The notes beneath the pieces are model-generated. The model did not search any database, was not told where the DNA came from, and saw only the letters and a program-made list of their open reading frames with translations. Positions 3,378-31,712 of a DNA stretch of 64,000 bases are shown here, piece after piece; the first letter of the stretch is position 1; each line of letters starts with the position of its first letter. Source of the stretch: a virus (taxonomy: Duplodnaviria > Caudoviricetes); IMG/VR virus record IMGVR_UViG_3300042554_001750; one strand, given 5' to 3'. A program made the position numbers and the translations under genes.

Positions 3378-4376
3378 TTACTTGATAGGGACTAAGTTGT
3401 TTTTAAATATTTCCCAAGCCTGTTGCCAACTCCATCGTTGACTTCCATTTAAAACTATCTGCCTATCCAAATGCAAACAACGCTGGATTGCAATAGATAA
3501 CTCTTGTTCCATATAGCCAGTGATACCCTCGTCAATTACATCCATTGGTCCCTGACATCTATATGCTGCCACCGGTGTACCGCATGCCATTGCTTCTATC
3601 ATAACAATACCAAATGTTTCCCATTGACTTGGAAAAACAAATACATCAGCATTAGCATAGTAATATGCCAATTCATGACCTGTTTTAAAACCTACAAATT
3701 GTATATCGGGGTATTTCTTCTTATATGTTTCCAACATTGGTCCATCCCCTACCATTATTTTATAACTGTTAGGATATTCTAATTTAAAGAAATCTTCTAG
3801 ATTTTTTTCTTTACTAACTCGGCTTACACAGACCAACAATTTAACATCGTCATTTCTATTTCTTTGAGAAGAATTAAAAACCTTTCTATCAACGCCTCTA
3901 GTCCAGCTAACAATTTCTCCATCAAATCCATGCTCACGCAGTTCATTCACCATACTGTCAGTGGTGGTCAATACTTTACCTGAATGTTTGTGAAACCATC
4001 TAACTAAAGGCCAAGTAATACTTTCAGGTATTCCAAATAACTTTCTAATTCCTTCTGGAAACTTAGTATGATAAGCAGTATTGTAGCGATAACCGTGTTT
4101 GTCAAGATATTGTCTAGCACACAAACCCACAGGACCTTCGGTGGCGATATGGATATGATCCGGAGATATCTTCTCAATCGCCTGGCCGATCTTCCTGGGA
4201 AAGGCAATCTTGACTTCGTTGTAGCCAGGGCAACCAATATAGCGGAACCTCCCGGGATCAATAAAAACAACACGATAATTGTCGTGAAGCGCCATAGCCT
4301 CAATATTTTTGTAGGTTGTAACGACACCATTTATTTGATTTGGTAAATTATCAGTTATAATCAGTATAGTTTTCAC
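3378..4376 (-). CDS. GT4 glycosyltransferase resembling Agt-type glycosyl-diacylglycerol synthases
   Basis: ITDNLPNQINGVVTT, HIHIATEGPVG, YHTKFPE, RVSKEKN, VFVFPSQWETFGIVMIEAMACGTPV; paired with LpxH/PlcP-like gene. Confidence 0.85.
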   Translation of the reverse strand: MKTILIITDNLPNQINGVVTTYKNIEAMALHDNYRVVFIDPGRFRYIGCPGYNEVKIAFPRKIGQAIEKISPDHIHIATEGPVGLCARQYLDKHGYRYNTAYHTKFPEGIRKLFGIPESITWPLVRWFHKHSGKVLTTTDSMVNELREHGFDGEIVSWTRGVDRKVFNSSQRNRNDDVKLLVCVSRVSKEKNLEDFFKLEYPNSYKIMVGDGPMLETYKKKYPDIQFVGFKTGHELAYYYANADVFVFPSQWETFGIVMIEAMACGTPVAAYRCQGPMDVIDEGITGYMEQELSIAIQRCLHLDRQIVLNGSQRWSWQQAWEIFKNNLVPIK

Positions 4377-4504
4377 TTTATAGATTCTGTATGTTTATGA
4401 TGTAGACTTTTCTTTAAAAGTTTTAACCAAGTCTTTTTTTCCCGAGCTTGATTATGCTGGACGCAAGCCTTGTAATGTTTTTTGATCAACTTTCTTACTT
4501 TCAT
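4373..4504 (-). CDS. small basic hypothetical protein (43 aa), not in ORF track
   Basis: Manual translation MKVRKLIKKHYKACVQHNQAREKKTWLKLLKKSLHHKHTESIK*; its TGA overlaps the GTG start of the GT4 (GTGA). Confidence 0.55.
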   Translation of the reverse strand: MKVRKLIKKHYKACVQHNQAREKKTWLKLLKKSLHHKHTESIK

Positions 4505-4670
4505 AACAACCTCCTTGTATCTTAAAACTATCAAACTTTAACCAGTATTCTACTGATTTTAATGCCTGTTCACACTCCGTCTGTGTCTGAAATTTTATCA
4601 CTGCTTTGCCCGGCACGTCGGCGGGATTGTTTATGTGTACTGCTATCAAAATTAGTAACCACATTGTCAC
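4452..4670 (-). CDS. small hypothetical protein with hydrophobic N-terminus
   Basis: ORF track; GGAGAG RBS; MWLLILIAVH N-terminus; two Cys. Confidence 0.55.
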   Translation of the reverse strand: MTMWLLILIAVHINNPADVPGKAVIKFQTQTECEQALKSVEYWLKFDSFKIQGGCYESKKVDQKTLQGLRPA

Positions 4671-5418
4671 TCTCCTTAGTCCAAATTACGATTTCCCAGT
4701 GGCCATCGTGGTGTTCAACCAATGCAGTCATAGATTCTACCCAGTCGCCATCATTCATATAAACAATGCCATCAATTTCTTTTATTTCAGCATGATGAAT
4801 GTGCCCACAGATCACACCATCAAAACCACGCTTCTTACAATAAGCAACTAAATTTTTTTCAAACTGAAATATAAAGTCAACAGCCTTTTTCACTCGCTGT
4901 TTCAAATATTGACTCAAACTCCAATAACCAAATCCAAATTTATGACGCCACCAATTGAACTTGTTGTTTAACCATAATACCACATCGTATGCTTTGTCAC
5001 CTAAAAATGCTAACCACGGCGCTAATCTAGTAATTCCATCAAATAAATCTCCGTGTATTACAAGATAATGTTTGCCATCTACACCTATGTGTTCAGTTTG
5101 GTTGGTTACTTCAACATTACCAAAGCCGATATTATAAGGCATGAGTGGTCGTAAAAATTCATCATGATTGCCTGCCACATAAATCACGCGAGTACCACGT
5201 TTAGCATGACCTAATATTCGTCTGACAACATTAGTATGGCTTTGCTTCCAGCGCCATTTGTTTTGCTGTATACGCCAAACATCCAAAATATCACCCACTA
5301 AGTACAATGTTTCACAAGTGTTGTGCTTGAGAAAATTATTTAGTTGTTCGGCTTTACTATCTCTAGTGCCTAAATGAACATCACTGACAAAAATGGCGCG
5401 ATAAGTCTTTGGTGTCAT
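4570..5418 (-). CDS. LpxH-family metallophosphoesterase, PlcP-like phospholipase C
   Basis: SDVHLG, LVGDILD, GNHDEFLR, HGDLFD, GVICGHIHH, YMNDGDWVES motifs, plus the LGDKAYD...YWSLS..K.RVKKAV insertion typical of the PlcP-like group. Confidence 0.8.
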   Translation of the reverse strand: MTPKTYRAIFVSDVHLGTRDSKAEQLNNFLKHNTCETLYLVGDILDVWRIQQNKWRWKQSHTNVVRRILGHAKRGTRVIYVAGNHDEFLRPLMPYNIGFGNVEVTNQTEHIGVDGKHYLVIHGDLFDGITRLAPWLAFLGDKAYDVVLWLNNKFNWWRHKFGFGYWSLSQYLKQRVKKAVDFIFQFEKNLVAYCKKRGFDGVICGHIHHAEIKEIDGIVYMNDGDWVESMTALVEHHDGHWEIVIWTKESDNVVTNFDSSTHKQSRRRAGQSSDKISDTDGV

Positions 5419-5423
5419 ACGAA

Positions 5424-5430
5424 TATTTAT
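5424..5430 (-). promoter_or_regulatory. T4-like late promoter variant ATAAATA
   Basis: GATAAATAT 6 nt upstream of the ATG at 5418. Confidence 0.45.
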
Positions 5431-5456
5431 CGTGTTATTAATTACAAACCTATTAT

Positions 5457-5478
5457 AAAAAAAGGCCCTTTCGGGCCT
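5457..5478 (-). terminator. rho-independent terminator after pstS
   Basis: AGGCCC-GAAA-GGGCCT followed by a run of T on the minus strand. Confidence 0.85.
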
Positions 5479-5520
5479 GCTGGTTACGGATATCCAGCAC
5501 CACCTTATCTTGTGGTCGGT

Positions 5521-6510
5521 TTATTTAATTTTACTTATTTCTTTTTCTACTAACGCTACAACACTGTCTGGTAGAGGAACATAATCAAGTTCTTCTGCCA
5601 TCTTATCGCCCTTAGCAAAAGCCCATCTAAAGAATTTTAATGCTTCTTGTGCTTCTTGTGGTTTGTCATTCTTTAGATACATGATGATGAATGTGGCACC
5701 TGTAACAGGCCATGCAGTCCTGCCAGGTTGATCAGTTAATACTTGGAAAAATGTTTTTTCCCATGTAGCATTTGCTGCCGCAGCCTTGAATGTTAAATCA
5801 TCAGGAGCTACCCACTGACCATCTTTATTCTGCATCTGCACCCAATTCATTTTAGTTTGTTTGACATAAGCATACTCAACATAACCTAGTGCACCGGGTA
5901 GTTGACGAACCATAGCACTAACGCCCTCATTACCCTTGCCACCTACACCAACTTTCCAGTTAACAGCAGTACCTTCTCCAATTGTTTCTTTAAATTCGCT
6001 ATTAACTTTGCTTAGATAGTTTGTCCATAAGAATGTCGTGCCGCTACCATCTGCACGACGAACTACAGCAATATCTTGATTGGGTAGTTTTAATGATGGA
6101 TTAAGGTTTGCAATAGCAGGATCATCCCACTTTTTAATCTTACCTAAATAGATATCTGCAATTACTTGTCCGGTGAGTTTCATTTCGCCAGGCTTGACTT
6201 CTTTCAGATTAATGACAGGTACTACTCCACCAATTACTGTAGGGAACTGTGTTGCACCCATGCTAGATAATTTGTCGTCTTTTAATGGCATATCACTTGC
6301 ACCGAACGCTACTGTCTTGGCTTCAATTTGTCTTATGCCTGCACCTGATCCTACACTTTGATAATTTAATCTAATACCAGTTTCTTTATTATAGGCATCT
6401 GCCCACTTAGCATAAAGCGGAGCCGGGAATGTTGCCCCGGCTCCATTAATTGTCTGTGCGTGTGCCGTGAATGATACGGCTGCTAATACCATAGCAATTA
6501 TTTTGTTCAT
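5521..6510 (-). CDS. pstS: phosphate ABC transporter periplasmic binding protein PstS
   Basis: Signal peptide (..TAHA/Q), GAGATFPAPLY, YQSVGSGAG, FGASDMPL, RADGSGTT, GKGNEGV, YVEY. Confidence 0.95.
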   Translation of the reverse strand: MNKIIAMVLAAVSFTAHAQTINGAGATFPAPLYAKWADAYNKETGIRLNYQSVGSGAGIRQIEAKTVAFGASDMPLKDDKLSSMGATQFPTVIGGVVPVINLKEVKPGEMKLTGQVIADIYLGKIKKWDDPAIANLNPSLKLPNQDIAVVRRADGSGTTFLWTNYLSKVNSEFKETIGEGTAVNWKVGVGGKGNEGVSAMVRQLPGALGYVEYAYVKQTKMNWVQMQNKDGQWVAPDDLTFKAAAANATWEKTFFQVLTDQPGRTAWPVTGATFIIMYLKNDKPQEAQEALKFFRWAFAKGDKMAEELDYVPLPDSVVALVEKEISKIK

Positions 6511-6554
6511 ACTTGTCTCCTTGTGTGTTGAACAACTGTATTTACAAAAAAAGT

Positions 6555-6593
6555 GTTAAGAAATTATGACAAAATTGTGACAGTTTATGACAA
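6555..6593 (-). promoter_or_regulatory. Pho box (PhoB-binding direct repeats) upstream of pstS
   Basis: Minus strand TTGTCAT-AAA-CTGTCAC-AATT-TTGTCAT-AATT-TCTTAAC; matches CTGTCAT-N4-CTGTCA(C/T). Confidence 0.8.
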
Positions 6594-6616
6594 AAGGGGC
6601 CAATGGCCCCTTTTGT
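6590..6616 (-). terminator. symmetric rho-independent terminator after the porin gene
   Basis: ACAAAAGGGGCC-ATT-GGCCCCTTTTGT perfect 12-bp inverted repeat; T-tract overlaps the first Pho half-site. Confidence 0.85.
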
Positions 6617-6634
6617 ATTTTGGCAAAGATAAAA

Positions 6635-7546
6635 TTAAAACTTGTGTGTTACACCAACACCAAATCCACTAGTACCATTGGCTGCAGGACAGCCAATAGC
6701 TAAACAACTTACAGCACTTCTATCAACATTGCGATATACAACATGCAAAGCAGTACGCTTGCTTAAATTGTAATCAGCACCAACATTGTAAGCAGTTGTG
6801 TCTGTATTTGTACGGCCATAACTTGCCTTTGCAGTGATATGACCCATATCACGTGCTACACCAAGCGTTTGACCTTTGCTAGTTACTAGACCTTCGTTGT
6901 CGCTGTATACATACGCTACTGTAGTTCCCATCAATTTAGTTTGAGCACCGAATACTGTGCTCTTTTCTGTTCCTTGTTGGAAACGTGCAACATCAACATG
7001 TAATCTTGCGATTTTAGTTGAGCCGGCAAAAACTTCAGCGTCTGCGCCAGGACCATTTAGTGTACGCTCATACGCAACTACAGAACCCTTAACAGGAACC
7101 ATTGTAGCATATACAGCATCTGCTAAACGCAATCCGCGTAGATTGTGTACATCACCTGCAACACTACCATACAATGTTCCGAAAACATCATTTTTAGTGA
7201 TTGCTAAGAAGTGGCTGTGTACATTGCGACCTAAGTCAACACTACCAAACTTATTGGCAAGACCGACTGTTGCTTGACGATCACCAACTCTAGTATCATC
7301 ACCTCCAAAGGTGTTACCCTTCAATGATGTTTCTACAGTGGCTCGGGCAAACAAATCACGGCCCATTTTTTCTTTAACTGATAGTGCAAAGTTGCTGGTT
7401 GGTTCAGTAACAAGTTGAGTACTGGTAGAACCATTACCAACTTTAGAGTTATCAACAAATGCGCTGACTTTTCCGTTTATTGTTACCTGAGCACTAGCAA
7501 CTGAAACTAGCCCCATCAATAAAGTTGCCATTATAATTTTCTTCAT
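6635..7546 (-). CDS. outer-membrane porin (Gram-negative/Burkholderiales-type)
   Basis: Signal peptide (..VASA/Q), VTINGKV start, DRQATVGL..KFGSVDLGR, GADYNLSKRTAL, C-terminal VGVTHKF beta-signal. Confidence 0.85.
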   Translation of the reverse strand: MKKIIMATLLMGLVSVASAQVTINGKVSAFVDNSKVGNGSTSTQLVTEPTSNFALSVKEKMGRDLFARATVETSLKGNTFGGDDTRVGDRQATVGLANKFGSVDLGRNVHSHFLAITKNDVFGTLYGSVAGDVHNLRGLRLADAVYATMVPVKGSVVAYERTLNGPGADAEVFAGSTKIARLHVDVARFQQGTEKSTVFGAQTKLMGTTVAYVYSDNEGLVTSKGQTLGVARDMGHITAKASYGRTNTDTTAYNVGADYNLSKRTALHVVYRNVDRSAVSCLAIGCPAANGTSGFGVGVTHKF

Positions 7547-10488: not shown

Positions 10489-10532
10489 GTATTAGTAAAT
10501 GTAGATTTTTATATGATCATGACCATCAGTTT

Positions 10533-10560
10533 AAAAAAAGGAGGCTTAAGCCCCCTTTTT
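10533..10560 (-). terminator. rho-independent terminator after the tmRNA coding piece
   Basis: AAAAAGGGGGC-TTAA-GCCTCCTTTTTTT. Confidence 0.8.
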
Positions 10561-10721
10561 GGTTAGTTTGGTAACAAGGTCTTTCCTACCCCGTCTCAAG
10601 CTCAAGCGGCTAGAGCAAATACCTCATCGTTTGCAGGTATAAGTTTTGCTTGATTTACGGTCATCGCCTACCGTGCTGTCCACTCTGTTACTCTTTGCCC
10701 TGTCGAAACCATGACTGGCCC
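10561..10721 (-). ncRNA. ssrA: tmRNA coding piece (permuted, two-piece tmRNA); tag ANDEVFALAA at 10634-10602
   Basis: Begins GGGCCAGTCATGGTTTCGACAGGG; pk1-like CACGGTAGGCGATGACCGT; resume codon GCA and tag ANDEVFALAA-TGA; 3' end approximate. Confidence 0.9.
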
Positions 10722-10722
10722 A

Positions 10723-10797
10723 TCATAAAAGGACTATAGCAAAAACTACTAAAACTACAGTTATACCAAACAACCATTTTACTACTTCGTCGTTCAT
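10723..10797 (-). CDS. 24-aa hydrophobic peptide inside the tmRNA intervening segment
   Basis: AAAGGGA then ATG: MNDEVVKWLFGITVVLVVFAIVLL*; fills the spacer and stops 1 nt before tmRNA G1. Confidence 0.5.
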   Translation of the reverse strand: MNDEVVKWLFGITVVLVVFAIVLL

Positions 10798-10809
10798 ATA
10801 ATCCCTTTA

Positions 10810-10872
10810 TGGTGGACCAGGCGGGAGTCGAACCCGCGTCCAGAACACTTTTCTCTTTGCTTCATACAGCAA
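10810..10872 (-). ncRNA. ssrA: tmRNA acceptor piece (T-arm, acceptor strand, encoded CCA)
   Basis: GCGGG-TTCGACT-CCCGC T-arm then CTGGTCC-A-CCA; pairs with GGGCCAG giving G3:U70; TGTTCTG pairs with CAGGGCA; 5' end approximate. Confidence 0.9.
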
Positions 10873-10886
10873 TAATCTTTATGTTA

Positions 10887-13800
10887 TCATGACTTGTATT
10901 TATTTGTAAAGTACTGATTTAACCATTCCCATTCGTATGTTAATTTCAATTTGGCAAAATCGTCTTTATTGTTTTCATAATACTCATAAGCATCATTTGC
11001 ACCCATTAATGCATACTCACTAAAGTCACCCTCAGCCTTTGCTAACCAAGTATGCAAACGTGTTTGACTCATATAGTCTTGCTCATCATTACACAGTTTA
11101 ATTACTTCTCTGAATGCAGTTCTCCAAGTGCTATATGGGTCTGTATTGAACATTGCAGTTCCCGAATTGATTTCTACTACTTCATGGTTGTCATCAAGTG
11201 TAAAGTCTAATCCTTTACCGGTGTTATTCAATGTCATTATCTTGTTATAGGCAATCATAGCTTGGTGACCATATACTAACCCGTTCACAGGATTAGTAGC
11301 GTGAAAAATATAATGCTTTGACTTTTGAAGCCTGTCAGGTTGCCAGTTCCAATCAAAATTGTCGTCTACTTTTAACTTAGCAAATACCGTAAAGAACCAC
11401 GGCGTAGTGCTTACATTTGCTGCGGCATGGTACGCATTTACTCTTCCATTTACCCCATCAACGCGGACAACTTTGTTCTTTTTACCTTTGGTTACTTTTA
11501 ATAGATGTTCGTAGTTTTCTTCTGCGTTACTTTCACCATTGCTTAAAAATACAATGTCTAACGGATTGCTTTGTAATGGCTTGTAAGATTTTTTAATATA
11601 GGGATAATCATATAATTCTTCTTTTACATATTTTATAGCATCTTTAGGAACTATTATTCTTGTTCCACCTGTAGTAGTTACTAGAATAGTTTTAGAACTT
11701 TCAGACCATAAACTAATAGGTTTCTCATCCTTGATATTAATATTTCTATGGTCGTTAGTTTTAAAAACTGCATAAGGGAACTTAAAGTTTTTATCTATAG
11801 ATCCAACATGACTGTCACTAGTAATAAATTCAGGCGGATTGATTCTAGTGACTGATTGATGCTCATTGAAATTGATACTTGGATAATTTTCTAATGAAGA
11901 AATGTCATTTATGAACTTGCGCAATAATTCAACATTTACTAAAAAGGTATCACCATATTTTTGTCTGTCACTAGGAAACACATGCAATTGTTCCTGCGCA
12001 AAGGGATCGCAAATATAACTGAAATCAAATTTATCGTAATGACATATTGAATTACATACCCAAATAAACTGATCCTTTTTATCTTCTAACAGATTAAGAA
12101 TCTTTTCAAATGTTTTATGATAGGTGTCTACAAAATCAATAGTATGTAATTTTCTATTCCCAATTTTTTCTGTAATGTCGTATATGATATCAACCGATTC
12201 GTAGTTTCCGTGATCTATCAAATATACATCATATAGACAATCAGTAGCCTTTGCTCTTTTACTTTTTACTAAGTTTATAGTATTGAGGTGCTCAATAACT
12301 TTAACATACTTGGTATCTTCTAAAAAGGTTTCTGAATTAATGACATAAGTATTTCCCCAATGATTCCATTGAGTACCAAACACATGAATCATTTTGATTT
12401 GCCATGGACTTGGATAAAAATCAAAAGTAAAATCAGAATAATCTAATTCGCTATTCAATACCCAAAATAATTTTGTTTCTGTTTTGCGAATGCATCTTGC
12501 GATTGTTTCAACCCAGTTGTTGAAGAATCTTGTTTTTTGAAGCTTGGGATATAACTCTTTAAGTTTATTGAAACGAATATTACTTTCTAGGTTACCTTTA
12601 TCAATAAAAAACATACTCAAATTAGTATCTGTTTGAACTTGATGTTCTTCAACATAGTTATATTCTTTATAGCCCAACAAATACAACGGAGCATTGATGT
12701 AGTAGGTTTGTGTGTTCTTACTATATTCATTACCGAACACATTTATGTGTCTAAAGTTTTGTTCAGTTGGCCTCCAACTAAAATCAAACTTATCATAGTT
12801 TAAATCAGGGTTTAGTGCCCAAAATACTTCTTCAGGATGTTGATTAATCAAATCTTCTAATGTAGTCGTAATATAATATTTGTTTACTGTTGTCTTTTTA
12901 CTTTCATTAGAACGTTCCATCAATACAACTTCCGTAGCACCAGGCACTGTGTATCTAGGGCCATTGTTAGCCCACTGATATATTTGAGGCGGACTATGAG
13001 GATTAGGTCTCCATGTAAAATCAAATGTTTCTAAATCATCAGTATTGTTAACGCTCCACAAATTTAGTTGTGCAGCAGGAACAGCTACCGGTTCTAACAT
13101 ATATTTTTTATCTGTTGCTCCCTCTACATGATATTCAACAGTGGGTTCAGTAGATGCATCATTCCATTTATTACCAAACACATATATGTAGGGAGGTGAC
13201 TTGGGATCAGGTCTCCAACTAAAATCAAAACTTTCAATTGGTAGTAATTTTTTCCAATGATTTTCTGTCGCAGTAGATTTTACTAATGCTTTGATGTTAT
13301 CAATGTATGTGTATTCTGTAGCTCCGGGACAATGATACTCAACAGTTGGTTCTTGAAGTGCATCATTCCATTGATTACCAAACACATAGATATAAGGAGG
13401 ACTATGTGGATTAGGTCTCCAGCTATAATCAAAACTTTCTATGTCTATTAATGTTTTCCAATACTGTTGTGTTTTACTAACTTTAGCAATTATGTTAGTA
13501 ATATACTTTTTGTCAGTGGCCCCATGAACTGTGTACAGTACCGTAGGCTCAGTCATAGCATCGTGCCATTGATTGCCAAACACATAGATATAAGGAGGAC
13601 TGCCGGGTTCGGGTCTCCAACTAAAATCAAAATCTTCTACTGGAATCAACACACTCCAATTATCCATGTCGGGCAATGTTTTCGCAAATCTGTCATTCAT
13701 GTATTTGCGTTCAGATGCCCCTTCACAGTGATATTCAATAGTTGGTTCTGTTTCAGCATTGTTACTTTGATTACCCCATACATAGATATATGCTGGTTCT

Positions 13801-16552: not shown

Positions 16553-18037
16553 TTATGATATAACTTTTACATTATATAGTTTTTCAAAACGGTCGGCATC
16601 AAATCTATCATTGACCATTGGTTCGCCGCGTATATTCAATGAAGTGTTCAGTAATATAGGGCATTCGGTCATTACATACCACTTTTCTAGTAAGTCTCGT
16701 ATTCCTGATCCATCTTTCGGAACAGTTTGTACACGACTAGTCCCATCATAATGAACAATAGCAGGGAACTTGTTTGGAAATTTGCACTTTGCAATAACTT
16801 GCATGTATCTGCTGTTGTTCCAATTTTTAGGCATATCAAAATACTTATGCACATGCTCCTCTAGAATTATAGGGGCAAATGGTCTGAATTTCTGTCTGCG
16901 TTTGATTTCATTTACTTTGTCTTTAATTTCGTTCCCTCTAGGATCTGCTAACAAACTACGGTTGCCTAAGGCTCTTGGGCCAAACTCTGCTTTACCACTA
17001 GCCACACCAACAATACGATCGGTAAAAAGACAATCAAGTATACGGTTAGTAGGATAAGGACCAGGGATATTGTGGCCGAGAAAAGCACTAGTCCAATTAA
17101 GGTGCTTGCGATAACCAAGCGCAGCGGCTCCCAAACTAGAACCGCAATCACCAGGATTAGGCATAATCCATATTTGATCAAAATATTCTCCTAGTAGTCT
17201 GTTAGCAAGACAGTTTAGTGCAACACCGCCGCCATACACTAAATTGCGACTCGCGCCTTTTAGTCTGGCTTTTGACATTACTTCCCGCAATAATTGTTCT
17301 AAGAACACTTGACTAGAGCTTGCAATATCCATTGGATCTGCGTCTTTTAAAAACTCATCATCAGCGCCAATGTGCAGATTTTGTTTAAAGTCAATGGAAT
17401 GCATATTCTCTATAAATTCCGAATGCATCAAATCAGTATACTTGGGTTCTCCGTATGCAGCCATTCCCATAAGAATATATTCTTCATCCATTGGCTTTAA
17501 ACCAACTTTATGAGTCATGGCACTATAAAATAAACCTAAACTGTTTGGATATTGTTTGCTGTATAGTTTTATGTATTTTGCATTACCGTTATTATCGTAA
17601 TATGCATCCCATATTGTTATGGTATCAAATTCTCCAATAGCATCTATAATAACCACTGTAGCATCAGTAAAAGGACTAGTTTGAAAACTAGCTGCGGCAT
17701 GACTTAAATGATGATTATGTTTTTTAATACTTTTTTTGCCCAACATGTTATACATGTTGGGTCCTACTAATTCAGAATCAAACAAATTCAATAAAGAAGG
17801 TTTTTCTCCGGCACGGAGTTGTCTTAGTATCTTATAAAACGGTCTTTCGTAATAATGAAGTTCAAAATCACCAGTTGCATGATTCAACGCATCTTGAACA
17901 ATACTTGCACACAAATTTTTGTCGTGCTTGTGTTTGCTGTATCTTTCACTATGGCTGGCAAAAAGTATATCACCCGTTCCAGAGATGACAGTTAATCCGG
18001 CATCATGAAAACCGTTGCTTATACCTATATAGTTCAT
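16553..18037 (-). CDS. carbamoyltransferase (NodU/CmcH family)
   Basis: GFHDAG, HSERYS, HHLSHAA, IDAIGE, MGMAAYG, GGVALNC, EFGPRALGNRSLLADPR, KRRQKFRPFAP, DGTSRVQTV, LLNTSLN. Confidence 0.95.
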   Translation of the reverse strand: MNYIGISNGFHDAGLTVISGTGDILFASHSERYSKHKHDKNLCASIVQDALNHATGDFELHYYERPFYKILRQLRAGEKPSLLNLFDSELVGPNMYNMLGKKSIKKHNHHLSHAAASFQTSPFTDATVVIIDAIGEFDTITIWDAYYDNNGNAKYIKLYSKQYPNSLGLFYSAMTHKVGLKPMDEEYILMGMAAYGEPKYTDLMHSEFIENMHSIDFKQNLHIGADDEFLKDADPMDIASSSQVFLEQLLREVMSKARLKGASRNLVYGGGVALNCLANRLLGEYFDQIWIMPNPGDCGSSLGAAALGYRKHLNWTSAFLGHNIPGPYPTNRILDCLFTDRIVGVASGKAEFGPRALGNRSLLADPRGNEIKDKVNEIKRRQKFRPFAPIILEEHVHKYFDMPKNWNNSRYMQVIAKCKFPNKFPAIVHYDGTSRVQTVPKDGSGIRDLLEKWYVMTECPILLNTSLNIRGEPMVNDRFDADRFEKLYNVKVIS

Positions 18038-18156
18038 TTGTAAATAAACGGATCGCGCTTTTTAAGTTCTTTGATTTTTTTTCTGTAAGTAATTTCTCGG
18101 TGAACTTTATGATAGTAATTGAATACTAATTCTTTTAGCTTGTTGAATAAACTCAT
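18034..18156 (-). CDS. small basic hypothetical protein (40 aa), not in ORF track
   Basis: MSLFNKLKELVFNYYHKVHREITYRKKIKELKKRDPFIYK*; GAGG RBS; ATGA overlap with the carbamoyltransferase start. Confidence 0.7.
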   Translation of the reverse strand: MSLFNKLKELVFNYYHKVHREITYRKKIKELKKRDPFIYK

Positions 18157-18166
18157 GGGATGAACC

Positions 18167-19249
18167 TCATAACAAATGATGGAAATTGTGATTGATCCGT
18201 TCGGATTTGTTATTTATCTTGTATAATTCAGCTAGGAAATCTTTAAACTGTGGGTGTGCAGGATCAAAGATTGAAATATTACTAATGTCTTTAATCGTAT
18301 ACGCACCGGTATTCCAATGTACTATTTGTCTATAATTGATACTAAAAGTAAACGATGCCTTTTCAAAAATTTCCAACATCAAATTATAAAAAATTTCCAT
18401 TTCTTTATAATTGTATTGAGAAACAACCATTGACAATGTTAGATGTTCAAGCGTAGTTTGTGTTCGTAAAAACTTTAAATTCTCAATTAGTGCATCCCAA
18501 TCACCATTCAATCTGGTAATATTTTCATAAGTATGTTTTGTGCCAGCGTCAATACTTATTTCCATTGTTTTAATAAAGGGCTTGGCTTTTAACTTATCCC
18601 ACATTTTTTCAGTCAACAATACACCATTGGTAATAATGTGTATTCTTTCAAGATTGGGATACTTACTAGCATCAAAATTTATAAGATAATCTCTGTATAA
18701 CTTGCTATAAAAGGGATCACCACTTCCCGTAATCATTATAACCTTAGCAGATTCACTAAATTCGTTATCTACTGCATCTAGTAAATATTTTTTTGTTTTA
18801 TGACTTTCAGATTCAAGGTCATCGTTAGGAACAAAATCTTTTCTGCATGAGGGACATTTTAAGTTGCAACTTCTATCAAATCCAAATAATATTTGTTCTG
18901 GAAATCCTGAATAATTTTCTAAATCATATGATTGTTGAAATTCTTCAATCGTTATAAAGTCCTTAGGCTTTACACCCGTGTTTACAAGTTGTGACAACTG
19001 AGGGCATACTTTATGGTCACAAAACTTATAAGTACCATCAGTTACTGACTCTCTAATATCTTTTACGGTCTGTGAAAACCAACTTTGTTTTAGTGTTTCG
19101 GTATCATTAAAGTTTGTGTTATTTTGTCTGATATTTGTAGGACACCAGCTGGGGCAACACACCCACTGAGTATCCTGCTGTATATCAATGTACTTAAAAG
19201 GATTTAAACAGACATACTTTTTAAGTATGTCTTTATTTTCTTGTTTCAT
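18167..19249 (-). CDS. radical SAM protein with extra N-terminal Cys cluster
   Basis: RSCNLKCPSC (CxxxCxxC), TGSGDPF, ITNG, ISIDAG; N-terminal VCCPSWC and CDHKVCP. Confidence 0.88.
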   Translation of the reverse strand: MKQENKDILKKYVCLNPFKYIDIQQDTQWVCCPSWCPTNIRQNNTNFNDTETLKQSWFSQTVKDIRESVTDGTYKFCDHKVCPQLSQLVNTGVKPKDFITIEEFQQSYDLENYSGFPEQILFGFDRSCNLKCPSCRKDFVPNDDLESESHKTKKYLLDAVDNEFSESAKVIMITGSGDPFYSKLYRDYLINFDASKYPNLERIHIITNGVLLTEKMWDKLKAKPFIKTMEISIDAGTKHTYENITRLNGDWDALIENLKFLRTQTTLEHLTLSMVVSQYNYKEMEIFYNLMLEIFEKASFTFSINYRQIVHWNTGAYTIKDISNISIFDPAHPQFKDFLAELYKINNKSERINHNFHHLL

Positions 19250-20105
19250 AATGGAAGGGATCTCTTGCCTGTAACTCAGCCATCATTTGTTTGAAATTTT
19301 CTTCGGAGGTCTGATCTATTGTAGGACTATTTTCAAGATTTTGATCAAGCCAATCTTTCAACATTTTAGCATATTCTTGATGAGCAAAATAACCTGGATG
19401 AGGATCATCAGAATATCCCTTAATTTCATCACAAACAAATTTATTATTATCTCTTGAATATGCCAATATATTACTATAAAATAAATCGTTTTTATTGAAA
19501 AACTTATCATAAAATTTATACATATAACCGTGCATAAGTTTTATTGCAATATTGTTAGATTTACAAAACAAGTATAATCCAATCATGTCCCGGCTTATTT
19601 TTTTCCAAAACTCAAAAGTGTTATGAAATTTTTCAAAGTAGTGTTTAAAATCTTCTTGGACATCATCTACGCCTTCTGGGCGAGGATTATAGCAAGGAGT
19701 AGCGTATGCAAATTTTTGTGTGCTTAATTCTGAATTACAAATAAAGTATTTGCCCCAGTCATTGTAATACAGTTCACTTCTTCCGGGATCGGGCATTTCT
19801 AAAAACAAAAATAATCTATGACGATTATCCCAGTTTTTTTCCAAAAATTCATAAGTCATTCTTATGACTCTATCCAATCCTCCCCCACACTCGGCTTCAT
19901 TGACACATTGTATGTTAATCAGTTTAGATAGCATGGCTCCATAATTTGCTTCAGTGCGTGTATCACTCCAAGATACATTATACAAGGTTTTGTAGCCCTC
20001 TAAACATTTTTCATTCCATGGTGCGATAGTGGTATCTTCTAATCCGCCCCCCATAGTATATGAGCTACCATTGATGTAAAATAAGTCGTAACCTTTATAA
20101 CTCAT
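19233..20105 (-). CDS. SGNH/GDSL-like hydrolase-fold protein
   Basis: INGSSYTMG block I and C-terminal DDPHPG (DxH). Confidence 0.55.
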   Translation of the reverse strand: MSYKGYDLFYINGSSYTMGGGLEDTTIAPWNEKCLEGYKTLYNVSWSDTRTEANYGAMLSKLINIQCVNEAECGGGLDRVIRMTYEFLEKNWDNRHRLFLFLEMPDPGRSELYYNDWGKYFICNSELSTQKFAYATPCYNPRPEGVDDVQEDFKHYFEKFHNTFEFWKKISRDMIGLYLFCKSNNIAIKLMHGYMYKFYDKFFNKNDLFYSNILAYSRDNNKFVCDEIKGYSDDPHPGYFAHQEYAKMLKDWLDQNLENSPTIDQTSEENFKQMMAELQARDPFHYETRK

Positions 20106-20641
20106 GATGCATAATATAATTCAGGGTATTCTACTAATACATGCACTCCGCCGTTTTGATATGCCTCTAGATAAGATTTTTCAATCAAATTATATGAAGT
20201 CAAATCATAAAAAGAAATATTTTTACACATGTTTTTGAATTCATTAATATAATTACCCTTATGTTGATGACCCGGATCTAGTGGCTTATCTGACCCTTTA
20301 CCCAATCTAATTATTAAATTAATTTTATGGCCGGTCATAAGTTCGTATTTGTCTACATGATTAATCAATTGATTGGCTGCACAAATAATAAAATCCCATC
20401 TTGGATAAAAAGTAATAACAGTTTTGCCTGTCATTGCAATGCCCAAACTCATTCCCATTTGAGTTTCTTCCATTACGGGAAGCTCTATCATTTTTTCTTT
20501 TGGCACATTATTAAGTGTTGTGCTCATTGGATTGCCAGCGTACAATATCTGCTGTCCAATAAAAATTGTATCCCCCTTGGTGCCCAATTCTGTCATTACT
20601 GACGACAATGCATCTTTATATACAGAATTATTGTCGCTCAT
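20102..20641 (-). CDS. TPP enzyme beta-type subunit (transketolase/PDH E1 beta pyrimidine-binding domain only)
   Basis: FIGQ, IELPVMEETQMGMSLGIA, RWDFIICAANQLINH, GHQH; only 179 aa. Confidence 0.8.
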   Translation of the reverse strand: MSDNNSVYKDALSSVMTELGTKGDTIFIGQQILYAGNPMSTTLNNVPKEKMIELPVMEETQMGMSLGIAMTGKTVITFYPRWDFIICAANQLINHVDKYELMTGHKINLIIRLGKGSDKPLDPGHQHKGNYINEFKNMCKNISFYDLTSYNLIEKSYLEAYQNGGVHVLVEYPELYYAS

Positions 20642-21470
20642 ATTGATCCAACTTTTCTATGATGTTTTTTGCCATTACTTGATGACATTCTAATGAAGGA
20701 TGATGATCTTTGGGAGGATCTTCAAAGAAAACGGTATCTCCATTAATAACCAAATTCCTATTTTCTTTCATCATCGTTTCCATACAATCGTATTTTTGAT
20801 TGTTATAGTTTATTTCCATAAATCTTTTGTTCAACCATTCATCTTGCTTGATATACTGTACAAAGTCTACAGGCCAAGAATAAATTATAGTTTTTATTCC
20901 CTTGCTTTCAAAATGCATTAAAAACTTTTTTACTTTCATCAAACTGTGTTGGATATATCTTGCTGATAACTCATCAAAGGTGTAATTTTTATCTCTAATG
21001 TATTTAAAAAAGTTTATAGACTCAACCGACCCGTCGTTCAATAAGTCTTGCCAAGAAAATGTAAAGTTATGTCCATCTTCTATAACTTGTTTTTTATCCC
21101 GAGTCCAGTATGTTAGTTGGTACACAAGGTATTTTACCTCATTGTATCCGTAACAGTTACGGTCAGCCATTGGTTTTTCACCCTGAAATAATTCATAAAA
21201 ATAGCCCATAATTGAATCATTTGATCCGCCGTTATTTTTCTGAACTATTTCAAATGTATTAAAATGATTCGCAACTAATCTCGCGCCTCGCACAGAATCT
21301 TTGAAATTAAATTGTGCTTGAGTTAACAATGACTCATTGTATGCATCCGGTGCAGGTTCATCTAATGTAGGTAAGTTACTGTAATAATATAGTCCTTGAC
21401 CCCAAGTAAATGAACAGCCAGCAAATGCTATCCCTTTCCTAATATTAGTATTTGGTTTTACTTTAAACAT
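20628..21470 (-). CDS. SGNH/GDSL-like hydrolase-fold protein
   Basis: FAGCSFTWGQG, GGSND, C-terminal KDHHPS. Confidence 0.6.
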   Translation of the reverse strand: MFKVKPNTNIRKGIAFAGCSFTWGQGLYYYSNLPTLDEPAPDAYNESLLTQAQFNFKDSVRGARLVANHFNTFEIVQKNNGGSNDSIMGYFYELFQGEKPMADRNCYGYNEVKYLVYQLTYWTRDKKQVIEDGHNFTFSWQDLLNDGSVESINFFKYIRDKNYTFDELSARYIQHSLMKVKKFLMHFESKGIKTIIYSWPVDFVQYIKQDEWLNKRFMEINYNNQKYDCMETMMKENRNLVINGDTVFFEDPPKDHHPSLECHQVMAKNIIEKLDQYERQ

Positions 21471-21888
21471 TTTGATCTCGTTGACTCCAACTGATTTCCC
21501 AGTCTTTAAATTCGGCTGCTAAACAATCTACTTTGTAATCTTTTCTGCCACCAATCGCTTCTTGAATTACATTTTTAGCTGTATTTCGTATACCATTTAA
21601 TCCATGAGTTAACTCTAGATTATTACCATCTTTAATTCCACGCCGATAATTACTTTCATTATGCCAAATATGCAAGTTCATTTGAGACACAACAACTACT
21701 GCTCGTATTGTTTCAGCAGTAATTACACCATTATTCTCATCTAAAATCATTTGTATATCGTGTACAATATCTGCAATTTCTTGAGAATATGCTTCTTTAT
21801 GTTCGGGTATAAACACTTCTTTAAGTTGAACAATACTTAAACGGTCAATTAAATCACCAAGTGAATGTAGATATCGGCGCTGTTTCAT
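21463..21888 (-). CDS. hypothetical protein of the sugar cluster
   Basis: ORF track; LGDLIDRLSIVQLK helical motif; translationally coupled. Confidence 0.65.
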   Translation of the reverse strand: MKQRRYLHSLGDLIDRLSIVQLKEVFIPEHKEAYSQEIADIVHDIQMILDENNGVITAETIRAVVVVSQMNLHIWHNESNYRRGIKDGNNLELTHGLNGIRNTAKNVIQEAIGGRKDYKVDCLAAEFKDWEISWSQRDQNV

Positions 21889-22820
21889 AAGTTTGTAAAG
21901 TTTCTATTATTGTGATTTATCGTCATTTGATATGCACTAATTAATTGTTGGATTCCATAATCTAAACTAAAACTTGGTCTCCAACCCAAACTTTCTAGTT
22001 TTTGATTACTAACAATATAATTTCTCTTATCAAAATCTTCTTTGAACTCATCCTGCTTGATTACCAAAGACGGGACATGTTCTTTTATCTTATTTGCTAA
22101 TTCTAACTTGCTTAAGTTAGCATCAGACAACCCAACATTATATACATTATGGTTGCAAATATTATAATTGGATACCATGAACAAAAATGTTTGAGCTATG
22201 TCTTGCACATGTATATAATTTCTTTTGAAGTTTGCCTCAAACAATACTAGGTAACCATCTGTGACTGATTTATAAACAAAGTCATTGACCAATAAATCCT
22301 GTCTCATACGAGGGCTAACACCAAATACGGTAGCCAAACGCAATACAATACCATTACTTTTATCTAGCACATATTGTTCAGCATCGCACTTTGTCTGCGC
22401 ATATAGACTTAACGGCTTGAATGGGCTATCTTCAGTAATAATTGAATCGCTAGATCCATATTGACTGTTTGTATTGGGTATTATCAATTTCTGATCGTTA
22501 CTTAACCAATCCACGATGTTTTTGATTTGTTTATAATTAACATCAACCGTAAGCTCTGGATTGGATTTGCATGCAGGCATGCCAACAATCGCTGCTAACG
22601 GAATCACTATATCATGTGTAGTAACCAGTTCTTTTAGCAATTCGGTATTACGCACATCACCTTGAACAAACTTAAATTTTTCATGCTTGAATAGATGCAA
22701 CAAGCTAAGTTGCTTGTACATTAAGTTGTCCAAAACCGTAACTTCATACTGTTGCTGTAAAAAGTATTCGGCCATAGTAGAGCCCAAATAGCCGGCGCCG
22801 CCTGTAATTAAAACCTTCAT
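21885..22820 (-). CDS. NAD-dependent epimerase/dehydratase (extended SDR)
   Basis: ITGGAGYLG, YAQTK (YxxxK), LRLATVFGVSPRMR, RNYIHVQD. Confidence 0.9.
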   Translation of the reverse strand: MKVLITGGAGYLGSTMAEYFLQQQYEVTVLDNLMYKQLSLLHLFKHEKFKFVQGDVRNTELLKELVTTHDIVIPLAAIVGMPACKSNPELTVDVNYKQIKNIVDWLSNDQKLIIPNTNSQYGSSDSIITEDSPFKPLSLYAQTKCDAEQYVLDKSNGIVLRLATVFGVSPRMRQDLLVNDFVYKSVTDGYLVLFEANFKRNYIHVQDIAQTFLFMVSNYNICNHNVYNVGLSDANLSKLELANKIKEHVPSLVIKQDEFKEDFDKRNYIVSNQKLESLGWRPSFSLDYGIQQLISAYQMTINHNNRNFTNL

Positions 22821-22828
22821 AGCAGTAT

Positions 22829-23821
22829 TTACGGCTTACTGTTTGGATTGAATAAATTTTTGTTAGCTTTGTACCAATCTAGAGTTAATTTCAACCCCTC
22901 TTCAATTGTGAACTTGGGAGTCCAGCCTAATTGATTGATTTTCTTAGATGACAACAATCTTTTCGGTATCATAGGAGCCTTGTTGTTTACATATTCAACA
23001 GGATTATTGTTGTTTTCTATCTTTTTCAAGGTATCTAATATTTCATTTACGGTATACCCTTCACCATAACATACATTGTATATGTCGTATTTGTCTACTT
23101 TTTCAGCAACAAAAATAATACCTTCAGCCATATCTTCAACATACAACAAATCACGGACTTCAGTGCCGTCGCCCCATACTGGTATAGGATTAAGATTGTC
23201 TGCAACTTTTCTTATATTAGCTGGAGTAACGTGACACTTTTCATAATCAAACTTATCATTGGGACCAAACGCATTGCTAGGCCTAATGATGACACATTGC
23301 ATTGGATCATGGATTTGATTGGAAAAGAACTCGCAAAGTTGCTCACCATATCTTTTCATTCCACCTACAGCTTTGTATATGGGAACTAAATCTGTCTTGT
23401 GAATATCAAGGTCTTCAGCGCAATAGCCGTCCTTCAAATCGGGATATGTAGTATTAGAACTTATGAACACAAACTTTTTAACTTTGTTTCTCCAACTTTG
23501 TTCCAAAAGATTTGTATTCATTTCCACATTGGGTGTTACATGTAACAATGGATTTACTTTTGTATCCAATGCGTTAGATGTGTTCGCTGAACAATGTATA
23601 ACCACATCTATGTCTTTAGTGATTTCATTGCAAAATTCTGCATCTCGCAAATCACCTTTAAGGTTAGTTATATTTTTAGAGCCATCAAAATCAAATTTTG
23701 GTTCTCTAGAAAATGTTGTGGTTACAATATTAGTGTAGCCTTTTTGATGAAGTAGTTTTAAAATATTTGAGCCTATAAAACCACTCACGCCTGTTAATAA
23801 TATTCTACTGTTTTTATTCAT
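22829..23821 (-). CDS. GDP-L-fucose synthase-like epimerase/reductase (extended SDR)
   Basis: LTGVSGFIG, FISSNTTYP, RPSNAFGPND, VWGDGTEVRDLLYVED. Confidence 0.85.
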   Translation of the reverse strand: MNKNSRILLTGVSGFIGSNILKLLHQKGYTNIVTTTFSREPKFDFDGSKNITNLKGDLRDAEFCNEITKDIDVVIHCSANTSNALDTKVNPLLHVTPNVEMNTNLLEQSWRNKVKKFVFISSNTTYPDLKDGYCAEDLDIHKTDLVPIYKAVGGMKRYGEQLCEFFSNQIHDPMQCVIIRPSNAFGPNDKFDYEKCHVTPANIRKVADNLNPIPVWGDGTEVRDLLYVEDMAEGIIFVAEKVDKYDIYNVCYGEGYTVNEILDTLKKIENNNNPVEYVNNKAPMIPKRLLSSKKINQLGWTPKFTIEEGLKLTLDWYKANKNLFNPNSKP

Positions 23822-26831: not shown

Positions 26832-26837
26832 AGATGT

Positions 26838-28795: not shown

Positions 28796-28797
28796 GA

Positions 28798-31711: not shown

Positions 31712-31712
31712 A

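What the first reader, a model, noticed from the sequence alone, without database searches (positions are those of the whole stretch)
10561..10872. Circularly permuted (two-piece) tmRNA carried by a phage
Seen: the T-arm/acceptor/CCA half (10872-10810) lies upstream of the conventional 5' end (10721). The halves pair into a 7-bp acceptor stem with the G3:U70 alanine determinant. A tag ANDEVFALAA and a terminator follow. Established: two-piece tmRNAs occur in Alphaproteobacteria, some cyanobacteria and one betaproteobacterial lineage; phage tmRNAs are known. Inference: a compact phage ribosome-rescue RNA (about 225 nt in total) that could back up host tmRNA if it is cleaved by defence nucleases, or alter tagging and proteolysis.
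Basis: partly seen in the sequence, partly recalled or inferred. Interest (0 to 1): 0.8.

Follow-up and report, generated by a model that had tools for sequence, protein, structure and literature searches.

The report
Two-piece tmRNA in lake jumbo phage
A giant lake-water phage carries a complete, rearranged ("two-piece") gene for tmRNA, the RNA that frees stalled ribosomes; such phage genes are already published, so the call is right but ordinary, except that the cut-out spacer of this gene also holds a small conserved reading frame that may be a real mini-gene.

Summary
ARAGORN and three Rfam models call a circularly permuted tmRNA at 10534-10922 on the minus strand, tag ANDEVFALAA. It scores best as the betaproteobacterial type (138 bits; alpha 50, cyano 64.7). 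The contig is a fragment of a freshwater T4-like jumbo myovirus.

The RNA belongs to a large lineage. The tag string occurs in 118 IMG/VR contigs, about 90 of them called as permuted tmRNAs. Among about 185,000 species genomes it occurs only on 3 short MAG contigs and in one standard tmRNA. Across 47 distinct family sequences, every helix joining the two pieces covaries; G3:U70 and the discriminator A never change. SmpB is absent from this contig and from five large relatives, so host SmpB must serve.

Phage two-piece tmRNAs are already published (Melnitz paper, PMC9004378: 53 unique ones in cultured phages). This is a new member of a known kind.

One less ordinary point: the 88-nt spacer holds an SD-like motif plus a 24-codon hydrophobic ORF. 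The ORF is intact in five variants whose tags and stems differ. A relative carries a nuclease gene in the same slot. This scan has already noted the same layout on other genomes, and a separate note covers this window's spacer ORF. No experiment shows processing, charging or translation.

The parts
10881..10910 (-). Promoter-like site: -35 TTTACA, 18-nt spacer, TG-extended -10 TAACAT. It would start transcription a few bases before the acceptor piece.
   Evidence: 9 of 12 matches, TG present. The count of such sites in the region is not above shuffles, so on its own this is weak. It does align with the promoter part of the RF01850 model.
10810..10872 (-). Acceptor piece (about 63 nt): outer-helix strand UGCUGU 10871-10866, P2a strand 10847-10841, T-arm 10837-10821, acceptor 3' strand 10820-10814, discriminator A 10813, encoded CCA 10812-10810.
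   Evidence: Covariation.
10722..10809 (-). 88-nt intervening segment (spacer), expected to be cut out of the precursor. A 13-bp stem closes it.
   Evidence: -21.5 kcal/mol, z = -3.06, 0 of 200 shuffles fold as well. Stem-closed spacers of 31-455 nt occur throughout the family.
10723..10797 (-). 24-codon ORF plus stop inside the spacer (protein P0001; acidic N-terminus, then 16 hydrophobic residues). An SD-like AAAGGGA lies at 10808-10802. The stop ends 1 nt before G1.
   Evidence: The ORF is intact in five variants. The spacer is more conserved than the mature RNA in WIN vs L166. Translation has not been shown.
10534..10721 (-). Coding piece: acceptor 5' strand GGGCCAG 10721-10715, D-loop-like UGGUUUCGAC 10711-10702, P2a strand 10702-10696, outer-helix strand ACAGCA 10679-10674, a hairpin, the tag frame, the 3' domain and the terminator.
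10602..10634 (-). Tag reading frame: resume codon GCA 10634-10632, ANDEVFALAA, stop UGA 10604-10602.
10533..10560 (-). 3' hairpin plus U-run, an intrinsic-terminator-like end of the gene.
   Evidence: -14.8 kcal/mol, z = -2.46. It aligns to the terminal hairpin of RF01850. The simple scan did not flag it.

Best explanation
Window 10910-10533 (minus strand) is a complete gene for a beta-type, circularly permuted (two-piece) tmRNA in a freshwater T4-like jumbo myovirus, with a promoter-like site and a terminator-like hairpin. Shown from sequence and comparison: the gene order (acceptor piece, 88-nt stem-closed spacer, coding piece); a 7-bp acceptor stem with G3:U70, discriminator A and an encoded CCA; a T-arm; three further helices joining the two pieces, all with compensatory changes in relatives; and a tag frame for ANDEVFALAA. 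Inferred from what is established for two-piece tmRNAs (Caulobacter: Keiler, Shapiro and Williams 2000, cited from memory and from PMC9004378): one precursor is made; host RNase P cuts at G1 (10721) and the 3' end is trimmed to the CCA (10810), which releases the spacer; the two pieces stay base-paired; host alanyl-tRNA synthetase charges the RNA; host SmpB and EF-Tu bring it to ribosomes stalled on broken mRNAs; translation resumes at GCA 10634 and adds a ClpXP-type degron. The likely benefit to the phage is extra ribosome-rescue capacity while infection damages and turns over mRNA. That benefit is inference. In addition, at roughly even odds, the spacer is a small mRNA for a 24-residue hydrophobic peptide.
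For: Identity: ARAGORN calls a permuted tmRNA with this tag. RF01850 scores 138 bits and RF04321 137.1 bits over the full models; RF01849 scores 50.0 and RF01851 64.7.
Constraint: 63 of 65 family members have a 7/7 acceptor stem. G3:U70 and the discriminator A are invariant, and there are 7 stem variants with changes on both sides at positions 4-6. In 47 distinct joined sequences the outer helix, P2a, T-stem and acceptor stem are paired in 37-47 of 47, with several pair types per position.
Phage setting: gp6-like baseplate wedge at E 1.6e-253 plus a gp25-like protein. The closest cultured phages are 350-490 kb jumbo myoviruses at about 33% identity. There is no integrase. Genes on the same strand flank the RNA on both sides.
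Lineage: the tag string occurs in 118 viral contigs, about 90 of them called as permuted tmRNAs. In 185,579 species genomes it occurs 4 times. Three of those are short contigs in MAGs that also have their own standard tmRNA; the fourth is itself a standard tmRNA.
Presence in RNA libraries: contigs identical to the window cover 10645-10710 (X15), 10646-10701, 10675-10723 and 10812-10868 (X18), and 10810-10861 (X20). These come from three studies.
Spacer ORF. The confirmed SNase gene in the same slot of L020.
Against: Nothing here shows processing, alanylation or tagging. The RNA-library contigs may come from relatives or from DNA carry-over, and they cannot show ends or strand. No SmpB gene is in the 89-kb contig or in five relatives of 223-321 kb, so activity depends on a compatible host SmpB, and the host is unknown. 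Pseudoknots were not tested. Some pairs of the RF01850 outer helices are non-standard in this sequence. The promoter-like match is no better than shuffles give. For the spacer ORF there are only five substitutions, 2 synonymous and 3 not. The near-identity is at the DNA level, so recent exchange of the spacer or constraint on RNA structure would explain it equally well. U-rich sequence gives hydrophobic frames by chance, and other spacers hold ORFs of similar length without an SD-like motif.
Confidence: 0.85

Rival explanations
1. The tmRNA call stands, but the spacer ORF is not a gene. The spacer is conserved because its stem and interior guide precursor processing, or because the acceptor-spacer module was exchanged recently between phage tmRNA genes. 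The ORF is a by-product of U-rich sequence and of the TGAT motif that precedes G1 in nearly all family members.
For: Most family spacers end in TGAT whether or not they hold an ORF. ORFs of 24 or more codons starting near the CCA also occur in spacers without an SD-like motif (L085, L004, L103). The SD-like motif lies inside the closing stem and is paired. Only 2 synonymous against 3 non-synonymous changes are seen. WIN and L165 are identical over the acceptor piece and the first 75 nt or so of the coding piece, then become unrelated, which shows recombination within the gene.
Against: The ORF keeps its start, frame and stop in five variants. The SD-like motif changes only among purine-rich forms (AAAGGGA, AAGAGGA, AAAAGGA). 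The interior of the spacer is conserved as well as its stem, whereas spacers are hypervariable across the family. In WIN vs L166 the spacer differs at 3 of 88 positions against 22 of 119 in the mature parts (p = 0.0009). A true SNase gene has the same layout: SD-like motif, ATG at +13, stop 2 nt before G1.
Confidence: 0.5
2. The RNA acts mainly as a decoy or modulator and not as a rescuer. It would compete with host tmRNA for SmpB, or redirect tagging, in the way suggested for the tRNA-like-domain-only molecule of mycobacteriophage DS6A.
For: The phage brings no SmpB of its own, so it must draw on the host pool. PMC4131195 reports that DS6A carries little more than the tRNA-like domain and that a similar molecule inhibits tmRNA.
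Against: This gene is complete. The resume codon, the in-frame tag with a canonical ALAA end and the stop codon are kept across about 90 contigs. Conservation of the tag frame is not expected for a pure SmpB sponge.
Confidence: 0.07
3. The gene is host DNA: a bacterial ssrA picked up at a prophage end, or a mis-assembled or mis-binned bacterial fragment.
For: tmRNA genes are common integration sites, and fragments of them occur in prophages (PMC9004378). Four MAG contigs carry the tag.
Against: The gene is complete, not a 3' fragment, and sits between phage genes on the same strand. No integrase is present. Baseplate genes lie in the same contig. The MAGs with a permuted copy hold it on 1.1-6.7 kb contigs and also have their own standard tmRNA with a different tag. 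Only 3 of 151 sampled genomes of the order that holds the Burkholderiaceae MAG have a beta-type two-piece tmRNA, and their tags differ.
Confidence: 0.02

Closest known systems
Phage-encoded two-piece tmRNAs of aquatic T4-like myophages (OM43 phage Melnitz, pelagimyophages such as Mosig, some cyanophages); Buchholz et al. 2022, PMC9004378
   Same: A permuted tmRNA gene in an aquatic T4-like myovirus, without a phage smpB reported. That paper counts 53 unique two-piece tmRNAs among cultured phages, 50 of them from marine or aquatic samples.
   Different: Melnitz's gene groups with alphaproteobacterial tmRNAs and has a glutamine riboswitch in its 3' domain. This one is beta-type, and no riboswitch family reached threshold anywhere in the window. 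This phage is a freshwater jumbo phage related to the GAP32 and Atu_ph07 group, not a 141-kb Melnitz-like phage. blastn found no similarity beyond the T-arm in 50,697 phage records. That paper does not mention spacer ORFs in the parts I read.
Betaproteobacterial two-piece tmRNA (Rfam RF01850 beta_tmRNA; lineage of Sharkady and Williams 2004, which I could not read here)
   Same: Best-scoring model over its full length, including the region after the tag (CCUUGUUACCAAA) and the terminal hairpin. Tags of three cellular examples are ANDEHFAIAA, ANDERFALAA and ANDENFALAA against ANDEVFALAA here.
   Different: The cellular examples score 169-296 bits against 138 here. This gene is in a phage. The exact tag with a permuted gene was found only on viral or phage-like contigs. 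The direction of transfer between phages and bacteria was not resolved.
One-piece phage tmRNAs (mycobacteriophage Bxz1 group, Bacillus phage G, Stenotrophomonas phages such as Marzo and Yut2)
   Same: A phage-borne ssrA without a phage smpB. The T-arm and acceptor part of this gene matches them at 79-92% over 39-72 nt (PMC4131195).
   Different: Those genes are not permuted, so they have no spacer.
Other genes nested inside tmRNA genes: homing endonuclease genes in group I introns of the T-loop, and one permuted tmRNA with a tRNA-Ala in its intervening sequence (PMC11915505)
   Same: A separate gene lies in a part of the tmRNA gene that is removed from the mature RNA.
   Different: Here there is no intron. 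The candidate gene fills the spacer of a permuted gene. PMC11915505 mentions only a tRNA and a repeat element in intervening sequences, and no protein genes, in the passages found.

Membership tests
tmRNA (ssrA) in general | tRNA-like domain: 7-bp acceptor stem with G3:U70, discriminator A, CCA end, T-arm | tested here: met
   63 of 65 relatives have a 7/7 stem, with G3:U70 and the discriminator A invariant. The T-stem is paired in 47 of 47 distinct sequences, with 4 pair types at one position.
tmRNA (ssrA) in general | Internal tag reading frame that starts at an alanine resume codon, ends in a stop and encodes a C-terminal ALAA-type degron | tested here: met
   GCA at 10634 through UGA at 10602, reading ANDEVFALAA. 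The same tag, or the same tag with an N-terminal extension, is called in about 90 viral contigs.
tmRNA (ssrA) in general | Pseudoknots around the tag frame | not tested
   The Rfam models and RNAalifold used here do not model pseudoknots. Only the hairpin CGG...CCG after the outer helix was recovered.
tmRNA (ssrA) in general | Works with SmpB; is charged with alanine; tags proteins on stalled ribosomes | not testable with these tools
   No SmpB (PF01668) in this contig or in five large relatives, one of them 93% complete, so host SmpB would be needed. Activity needs experiments.
Two-piece (circularly permuted) tmRNA, RF04321 / RF01850 | Gene order: acceptor piece with CCA, intervening segment, coding piece starting at G1 | tested here: met
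   CCA at 10810, G1 at 10721, 88 nt between them. ARAGORN flags the gene as permuted. RF04321 scores 137.1 bits over model positions 1-213.
Two-piece (circularly permuted) tmRNA, RF04321 / RF01850 | Helices between the two pieces that hold them together | tested here: met
   Outer helix of 6 bp, P2a of 7 bp and acceptor stem of 7 bp, each with compensatory changes across 47 distinct sequences.
Two-piece (circularly permuted) tmRNA, RF04321 / RF01850 | Precursor is cut into two mature RNAs and the spacer is lost | tested here: inconclusive
   RNA-library contigs match both pieces, but contigs cannot show ends, and relatives confound the picture.
Two-piece (circularly permuted) tmRNA, RF04321 / RF01850 | Beta subtype rather than alpha or cyano | tested here: met
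   Beta 138 bits (cut-off 84), alpha 50.0 (cut-off 50), cyano 64.7 (cut-off 70).
Melnitz-type phage tmRNA (PMC9004378) | Glutamine riboswitch (glnA RNA type) in the 3' domain; alphaproteobacterial affinity | tested here: not met
   Only the two tmRNA families passed the gathering score in the 64-kb window, and the alpha model scores only 50 bits.
Protein-coding gene (for the spacer ORF) | Start, frame and stop kept in relatives, with an excess of synonymous change | tested here: inconclusive
   The ORF is intact in 5 of 5 variants, but only 2 synonymous and 3 non-synonymous changes are seen. There is no family match, which is expected for 24 residues. The Pfam and PHROG scans used a shifted frame for this peptide and are void.

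The most novel reading that the evidence does not exclude
The tmRNA precursor of this phage lineage does double duty. The spacer that is cut out between the CCA end and G1 is itself a small messenger. In this window it would encode a 24-residue membrane-type peptide whose SD-like motif is masked by the spacer's closing stem until the stem is opened or the RNA is processed. Related phages use the same stem-closed slot for unrelated genes, including a 146-residue SNase-type nuclease, and exchange acceptor-spacer and tag modules by recombination.
Probability: 0.45. Interest if true: 0.65.

Novelty: new member of a known kind. Interest (0 to 1): 0.4.

Why it matters
The tmRNA on its own adds one more well-supported example, from a freshwater jumbo phage, to a published class. 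It also shows that a beta-type lineage with the tag ANDEVFALAA is widespread in uncultured phages and almost absent from cellular genomes. That is useful for annotation: these genes are easily missed, or they are binned into MAGs as a "second tmRNA". It also bears on the question of why large phages invest in ribosome rescue. If the spacer ORF is real, a supposedly disposable part of a stable-RNA precursor would be a protein-coding slot. That would be an undescribed way of packing genes and of coupling their expression to tmRNA synthesis, and simple reporter fusions could test it.

Tried and rejected
1. A structural DNA pattern (T-loop, CCA, 70-100 nt, UGGUUUCGAC) found nothing in viral contigs. 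It was too strict.
2. blastn of the gene, and of the coding piece alone, against 50,697 phage records gave only T-arm matches or noise. No close cultured relative was found at that sensitivity.
3. The tag string occurs in none of the searchable papers, nor in the held supplements of PMC9004378. Sharkady and Williams 2004 is not held.
4. Metatranscriptome contigs leave the spacer 10736-10807 and both flanking genes almost uncovered, and several contigs start at 10810-10812. I do not count this as evidence of processing. The runs were found through conserved words, the contigs at 90-95% identity come from relatives with other spacers, loose ends exist at 10810, and contigs cannot show RNA ends.
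5. The simple terminator scan found none. I set that aside in favour of the fold and the Rfam alignment.
6. My first two scripts had errors: an ORF filter masked ATG starts that followed an in-frame TTG or GTG, and a CCA anchor was 3 nt short. The first was corrected and the second.
7. The Pfam and PHROG scans of the 24-mer used coordinates shifted by one base, so that part is void.
The only host lead is a Burkholderiaceae MAG whose standard tmRNA has the same tag (L123).
9. I did not try to settle with a tree whether the phage or the bacterial beta lineage came first. There are too few sites and only three cellular sequences.

Full report
**1. The observation.**
Read on the minus strand, the region holds the following, in order:
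- a promoter-like site at 10910-10881;
- a 63-nt piece that ends in a T-arm, the strand CUGGUCC, a discriminator A and CCA (10872-10810);
- 88 nt of spacer (10809-10722);
- the conventional tmRNA 5' end GGGCCAG followed by UGGUUUCGAC (from 10721);
- a frame from GCA 10634 to UGA 10602 that reads ANDEVFALAA;
- a hairpin with a U-run (10560-10533).

The two acceptor strands give seven pairs with G3:U70. ARAGORN calls one gene in the window, a permuted tmRNA with this tag. Rfam gives RF01850 (beta_tmRNA) at 138 bits against a cut-off of 84, and RF04321 (tmRNA_permuted) at 137.1 bits against 47, both over the whole model. The alpha model gives 50.0 bits, exactly its cut-off. The cyano model gives 64.7, below its cut-off of 70. 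So the beta assignment rests on a comparison of models.

**2. What the DNA is.**
The window is part of an 88,986-base IMG/VR virus record that CheckV rates at about 17% complete. GC content is 36%, and the tmRNA is its only tRNA-like gene.
- The window encodes a gp6-like baseplate wedge protein (E 1.6e-253), a gp25-like protein and a 6,498-residue ORF beside them.
- The nearest cultured phages, at about 33% protein identity, are jumbo myoviruses of 350-490 kb: Phosso, Atu_ph07, GAP32, CBB, Serratia BF and SCTP-2.
- The same DNA is held almost complete in lake-water and freshwater metagenomes of many studies.
- There is no integrase, and genes on the same strand flank the RNA gene.

So it is a phage gene, not a captured host fragment. 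Earlier notes of this scan describe the genome as about 370 kb with a 27-gene tRNA array. I could not check that, because only 89 kb is held for me.

**3. Relatives and constraint.**
A degenerate pattern for the tag found 118 viral contigs. ARAGORN calls about 90 of them as permuted tmRNAs with ANDEVFALAA or an N-terminally extended form.

The same pattern found only four places in 185,579 species genomes.
- Three are contigs of 1.1, 2.6 and 6.7 kb in MAGs labelled Flavobacteriaceae, Rubritalea and Flavobacteriales. Each of these MAGs also has its own standard tmRNA with another tag.
- The fourth is itself a standard tmRNA, in a Burkholderiaceae MAG.

The permuted gene with this tag is therefore essentially a phage lineage.

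Acceptor stem: in 63 of 65 members that I could anchor, the stem is 7/7 paired. G3:U70 and the discriminator A are invariant, and there are seven stem variants with changes on both sides at positions 4-6.

Whole fold: I joined the acceptor and coding pieces in silico for 47 distinct sequences and folded the alignment. This recovers the acceptor stem, the T-stem, a 7-bp helix (10847-10841 with 10702-10696) and a 6-bp outer helix (10871-10866 with 10679-10674). All of them show several standard pair types per position. This is direct comparative evidence that the RNA is selected to fold across the two pieces.

**4. Relation to cellular tmRNAs.**
Of 151 sampled genomes of the order that holds the Burkholderiaceae MAG, three have a beta-type two-piece tmRNA above the cut-off (169-296 bits). 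Their tags are ANDEHFAIAA, ANDERFALAA and ANDENFALAA. The phage RNA shares not only generic tmRNA features with the beta model but also the stretch after the tag and the terminal hairpin. So it belongs with that lineage. Which way the gene moved was not resolved.

**5. SmpB.**
PF01668 is absent from this contig. It is also absent from five large contigs that carry the same tmRNA family (223-321 kb, one of them 93% complete). The RNA must therefore use host SmpB.

**6. How it most likely works.**
By analogy with the established two-piece tmRNA of Caulobacter (from memory, and as summarised in PMC9004378):
- one precursor is transcribed;
- RNase P cuts at G1, and the 3' side is trimmed to the CCA;
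- the two pieces remain paired;
- alanyl-tRNA synthetase charges the RNA through G3:U70;
- SmpB and EF-Tu deliver it to stalled ribosomes;
- the tag ending in ALAA sends the product to ClpXP-type proteases.

All of these steps are inferred. Only the sequence features that they require are shown.

RNA-library contigs from three studies are identical to parts of both pieces. That is compatible with expression of this RNA or of close relatives, and it proves nothing more.

The tag looks canonical.

**7. The spacer.**
Across the family the spacer is 31-455 nt long, hypervariable in sequence, closed by a stem, and it usually ends in TGAT before G1.

In this window the spacer has the following layout:
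- an SD-like AAAGGGA three bases after the CCA;
- an ATG at +13 (10797);
- 24 codons for a peptide with an acidic start and 16 hydrophobic residues (P0001);
- a stop that ends one base before G1.

The 13-bp closing stem hides the SD-like motif (z = -3.06).

Four further contigs carry the same spacer: L165, L166, L168 and L169. Their acceptor stems, T-stems, P2 regions and tags differ; the tags are ANDSSYALAA, ANDEKFALAA and AANDSRFALAA (L168 is cut off before its tag). Yet the ORF is intact in all of them. The substitutions are K7 and L16 (synonymous), V14I, A20V and V5G. The SD-like motif varies only among purine-rich forms that still pair.

In WIN vs L166 the spacer differs at 3 of 88 positions, against 22 of 119 in the mature parts (Fisher p = 0.0009). 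This is the reverse of what a throw-away spacer should show.

In another branch of the family (L020, L106, L086) the spacer is 455 nt. It is filled, in the same layout, by a 146-residue SNase-family nuclease gene (Pfam 47.6 bits against a cut-off of 21; PHROG endonuclease E 2e-34). RF04321 matches end to end around it (114 bits). So a protein gene in this slot is a fact for a relative.

For this window I put the odds at about even. There are few substitutions. The near-identity is at the DNA level. Recombination within the gene is evident: WIN and L165 are identical for the acceptor piece and about the first 75 nt of the coding piece, then unrelated. And ORFs of this length occur by chance in U-rich spacers.

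**8. What is known.**
Two-piece tmRNAs in phages are published. Buchholz et al. 2022 (PMC9004378) describe one in OM43 phage Melnitz and count 53 unique two-piece tmRNAs among cultured phages, 50 of them from marine or aquatic samples. The 2025 tmRNA database lists 79 phage tmRNAs (PMC11915505). That paper mentions a tRNA-Ala and a repeat element inside intervening sequences, but no protein genes. I found no paper holding the tag string, and none with 'intervening segment' together with two-piece tmRNA.

This scan has already noted protein genes in phage tmRNA spacers on several other genomes, and a separate first-stage note covers this window's spacer ORF. Those are unchecked notes. I reached the same reading from my own calls before I looked at them.

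**9. Verdict.**
The finding is a real, complete, beta-type two-piece tmRNA gene of a freshwater jumbo phage, so it is a new member of a known kind. The spacer ORF is the one feature that could lift it above the ordinary, and it needs an experiment.

Noticed in passing
L020:3144-3780 (also L106 and L086): A 146-residue SNase-family nuclease gene fills the 455-nt spacer of a permuted tmRNA gene of the same family. The layout is an SD-like motif, ATG at +13 after the CCA, and a stop 2 nt before G1.
   Followed up: yes
window 10520-10930 against L165:4120-4560 (alignment A1): Mosaic tmRNA genes. WIN and L165 are identical over the acceptor piece and about the first 75 nt of the coding piece, and differ at only 2 positions in the spacer. 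After that they have unrelated tag regions (ANDEVFALAA against ANDSSYALAA) and 3' domains, so the tag module appears to be exchanged by recombination.
   Followed up: partly
L162:6054-6339; L161 and L164: In phages whose homologue of the upstream 1,885-residue gene is 51-59% identical, one (L162) has an alpha-type two-piece tmRNA (tag VAANDNNVELALAA) about 1.2 kb downstream, and two have no tmRNA within 3 kb. The tmRNA is thus a variable accessory at this locus, and its type can differ.
   Followed up: partly
L099, L018 and L006 spacers (for example L018:6426-6593): Other family spacers hold 52-61-codon ORFs that start at the same offset after the CCA, two of them with AAGGAG. These frames run through G1 into the mature coding piece, so after processing they would lack a stop codon. 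No family match was found.
   Followed up: partly
window 10797-10786 and 10631-10620: The spacer peptide starts M-NDEV and the tag reads A-NDEV. The two 12-nt stretches agree at 10 of 12 bases. In L165 and L169 the tags differ while the peptide start is kept (apart from V5G in L169). Unexplained, possibly chance.
   Followed up: no
window 39488-58984: A single 6,498-residue ORF lies directly beside the gp6-like baseplate wedge gene (58995-62393). It is presumably a giant tail or fibre protein.
   Followed up: no
window 16553-33290: A carbamoyltransferase gene (16553-18037) is followed by at least three radical-SAM-type genes (18167-19249, 30275-31711, 31713-33290) on the same strand. This may be a modification or small-molecule pathway.
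   Followed up: no
window 3378-7546: A glycosyltransferase, PstS and a Porin_4-type porin lie together. Earlier notes of this scan read the stretch as a phosphate-starvation lipid-remodelling module. The porin family points to a proteobacterial host.
   Followed up: partly
G002 (Flavobacteriales MAG): contigs C175, C126 and C13: One MAG holds three different permuted tmRNA genes on separate short contigs, besides its own standard tmRNA. ARAGORN's tag calls for two of them are ANNADYTRNYSYALAA and ANNDDYTSAYVALAA. These are probably binned phage fragments, a trap for counts of 'second tmRNAs' in MAGs.
   Followed up: partly
L123 (Burkholderiaceae MAG, standard tmRNA): A one-piece tmRNA with exactly the tag ANDEVFALAA. 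It is the only cellular match to the phage tag and so a lead to the host group.
   Followed up: no
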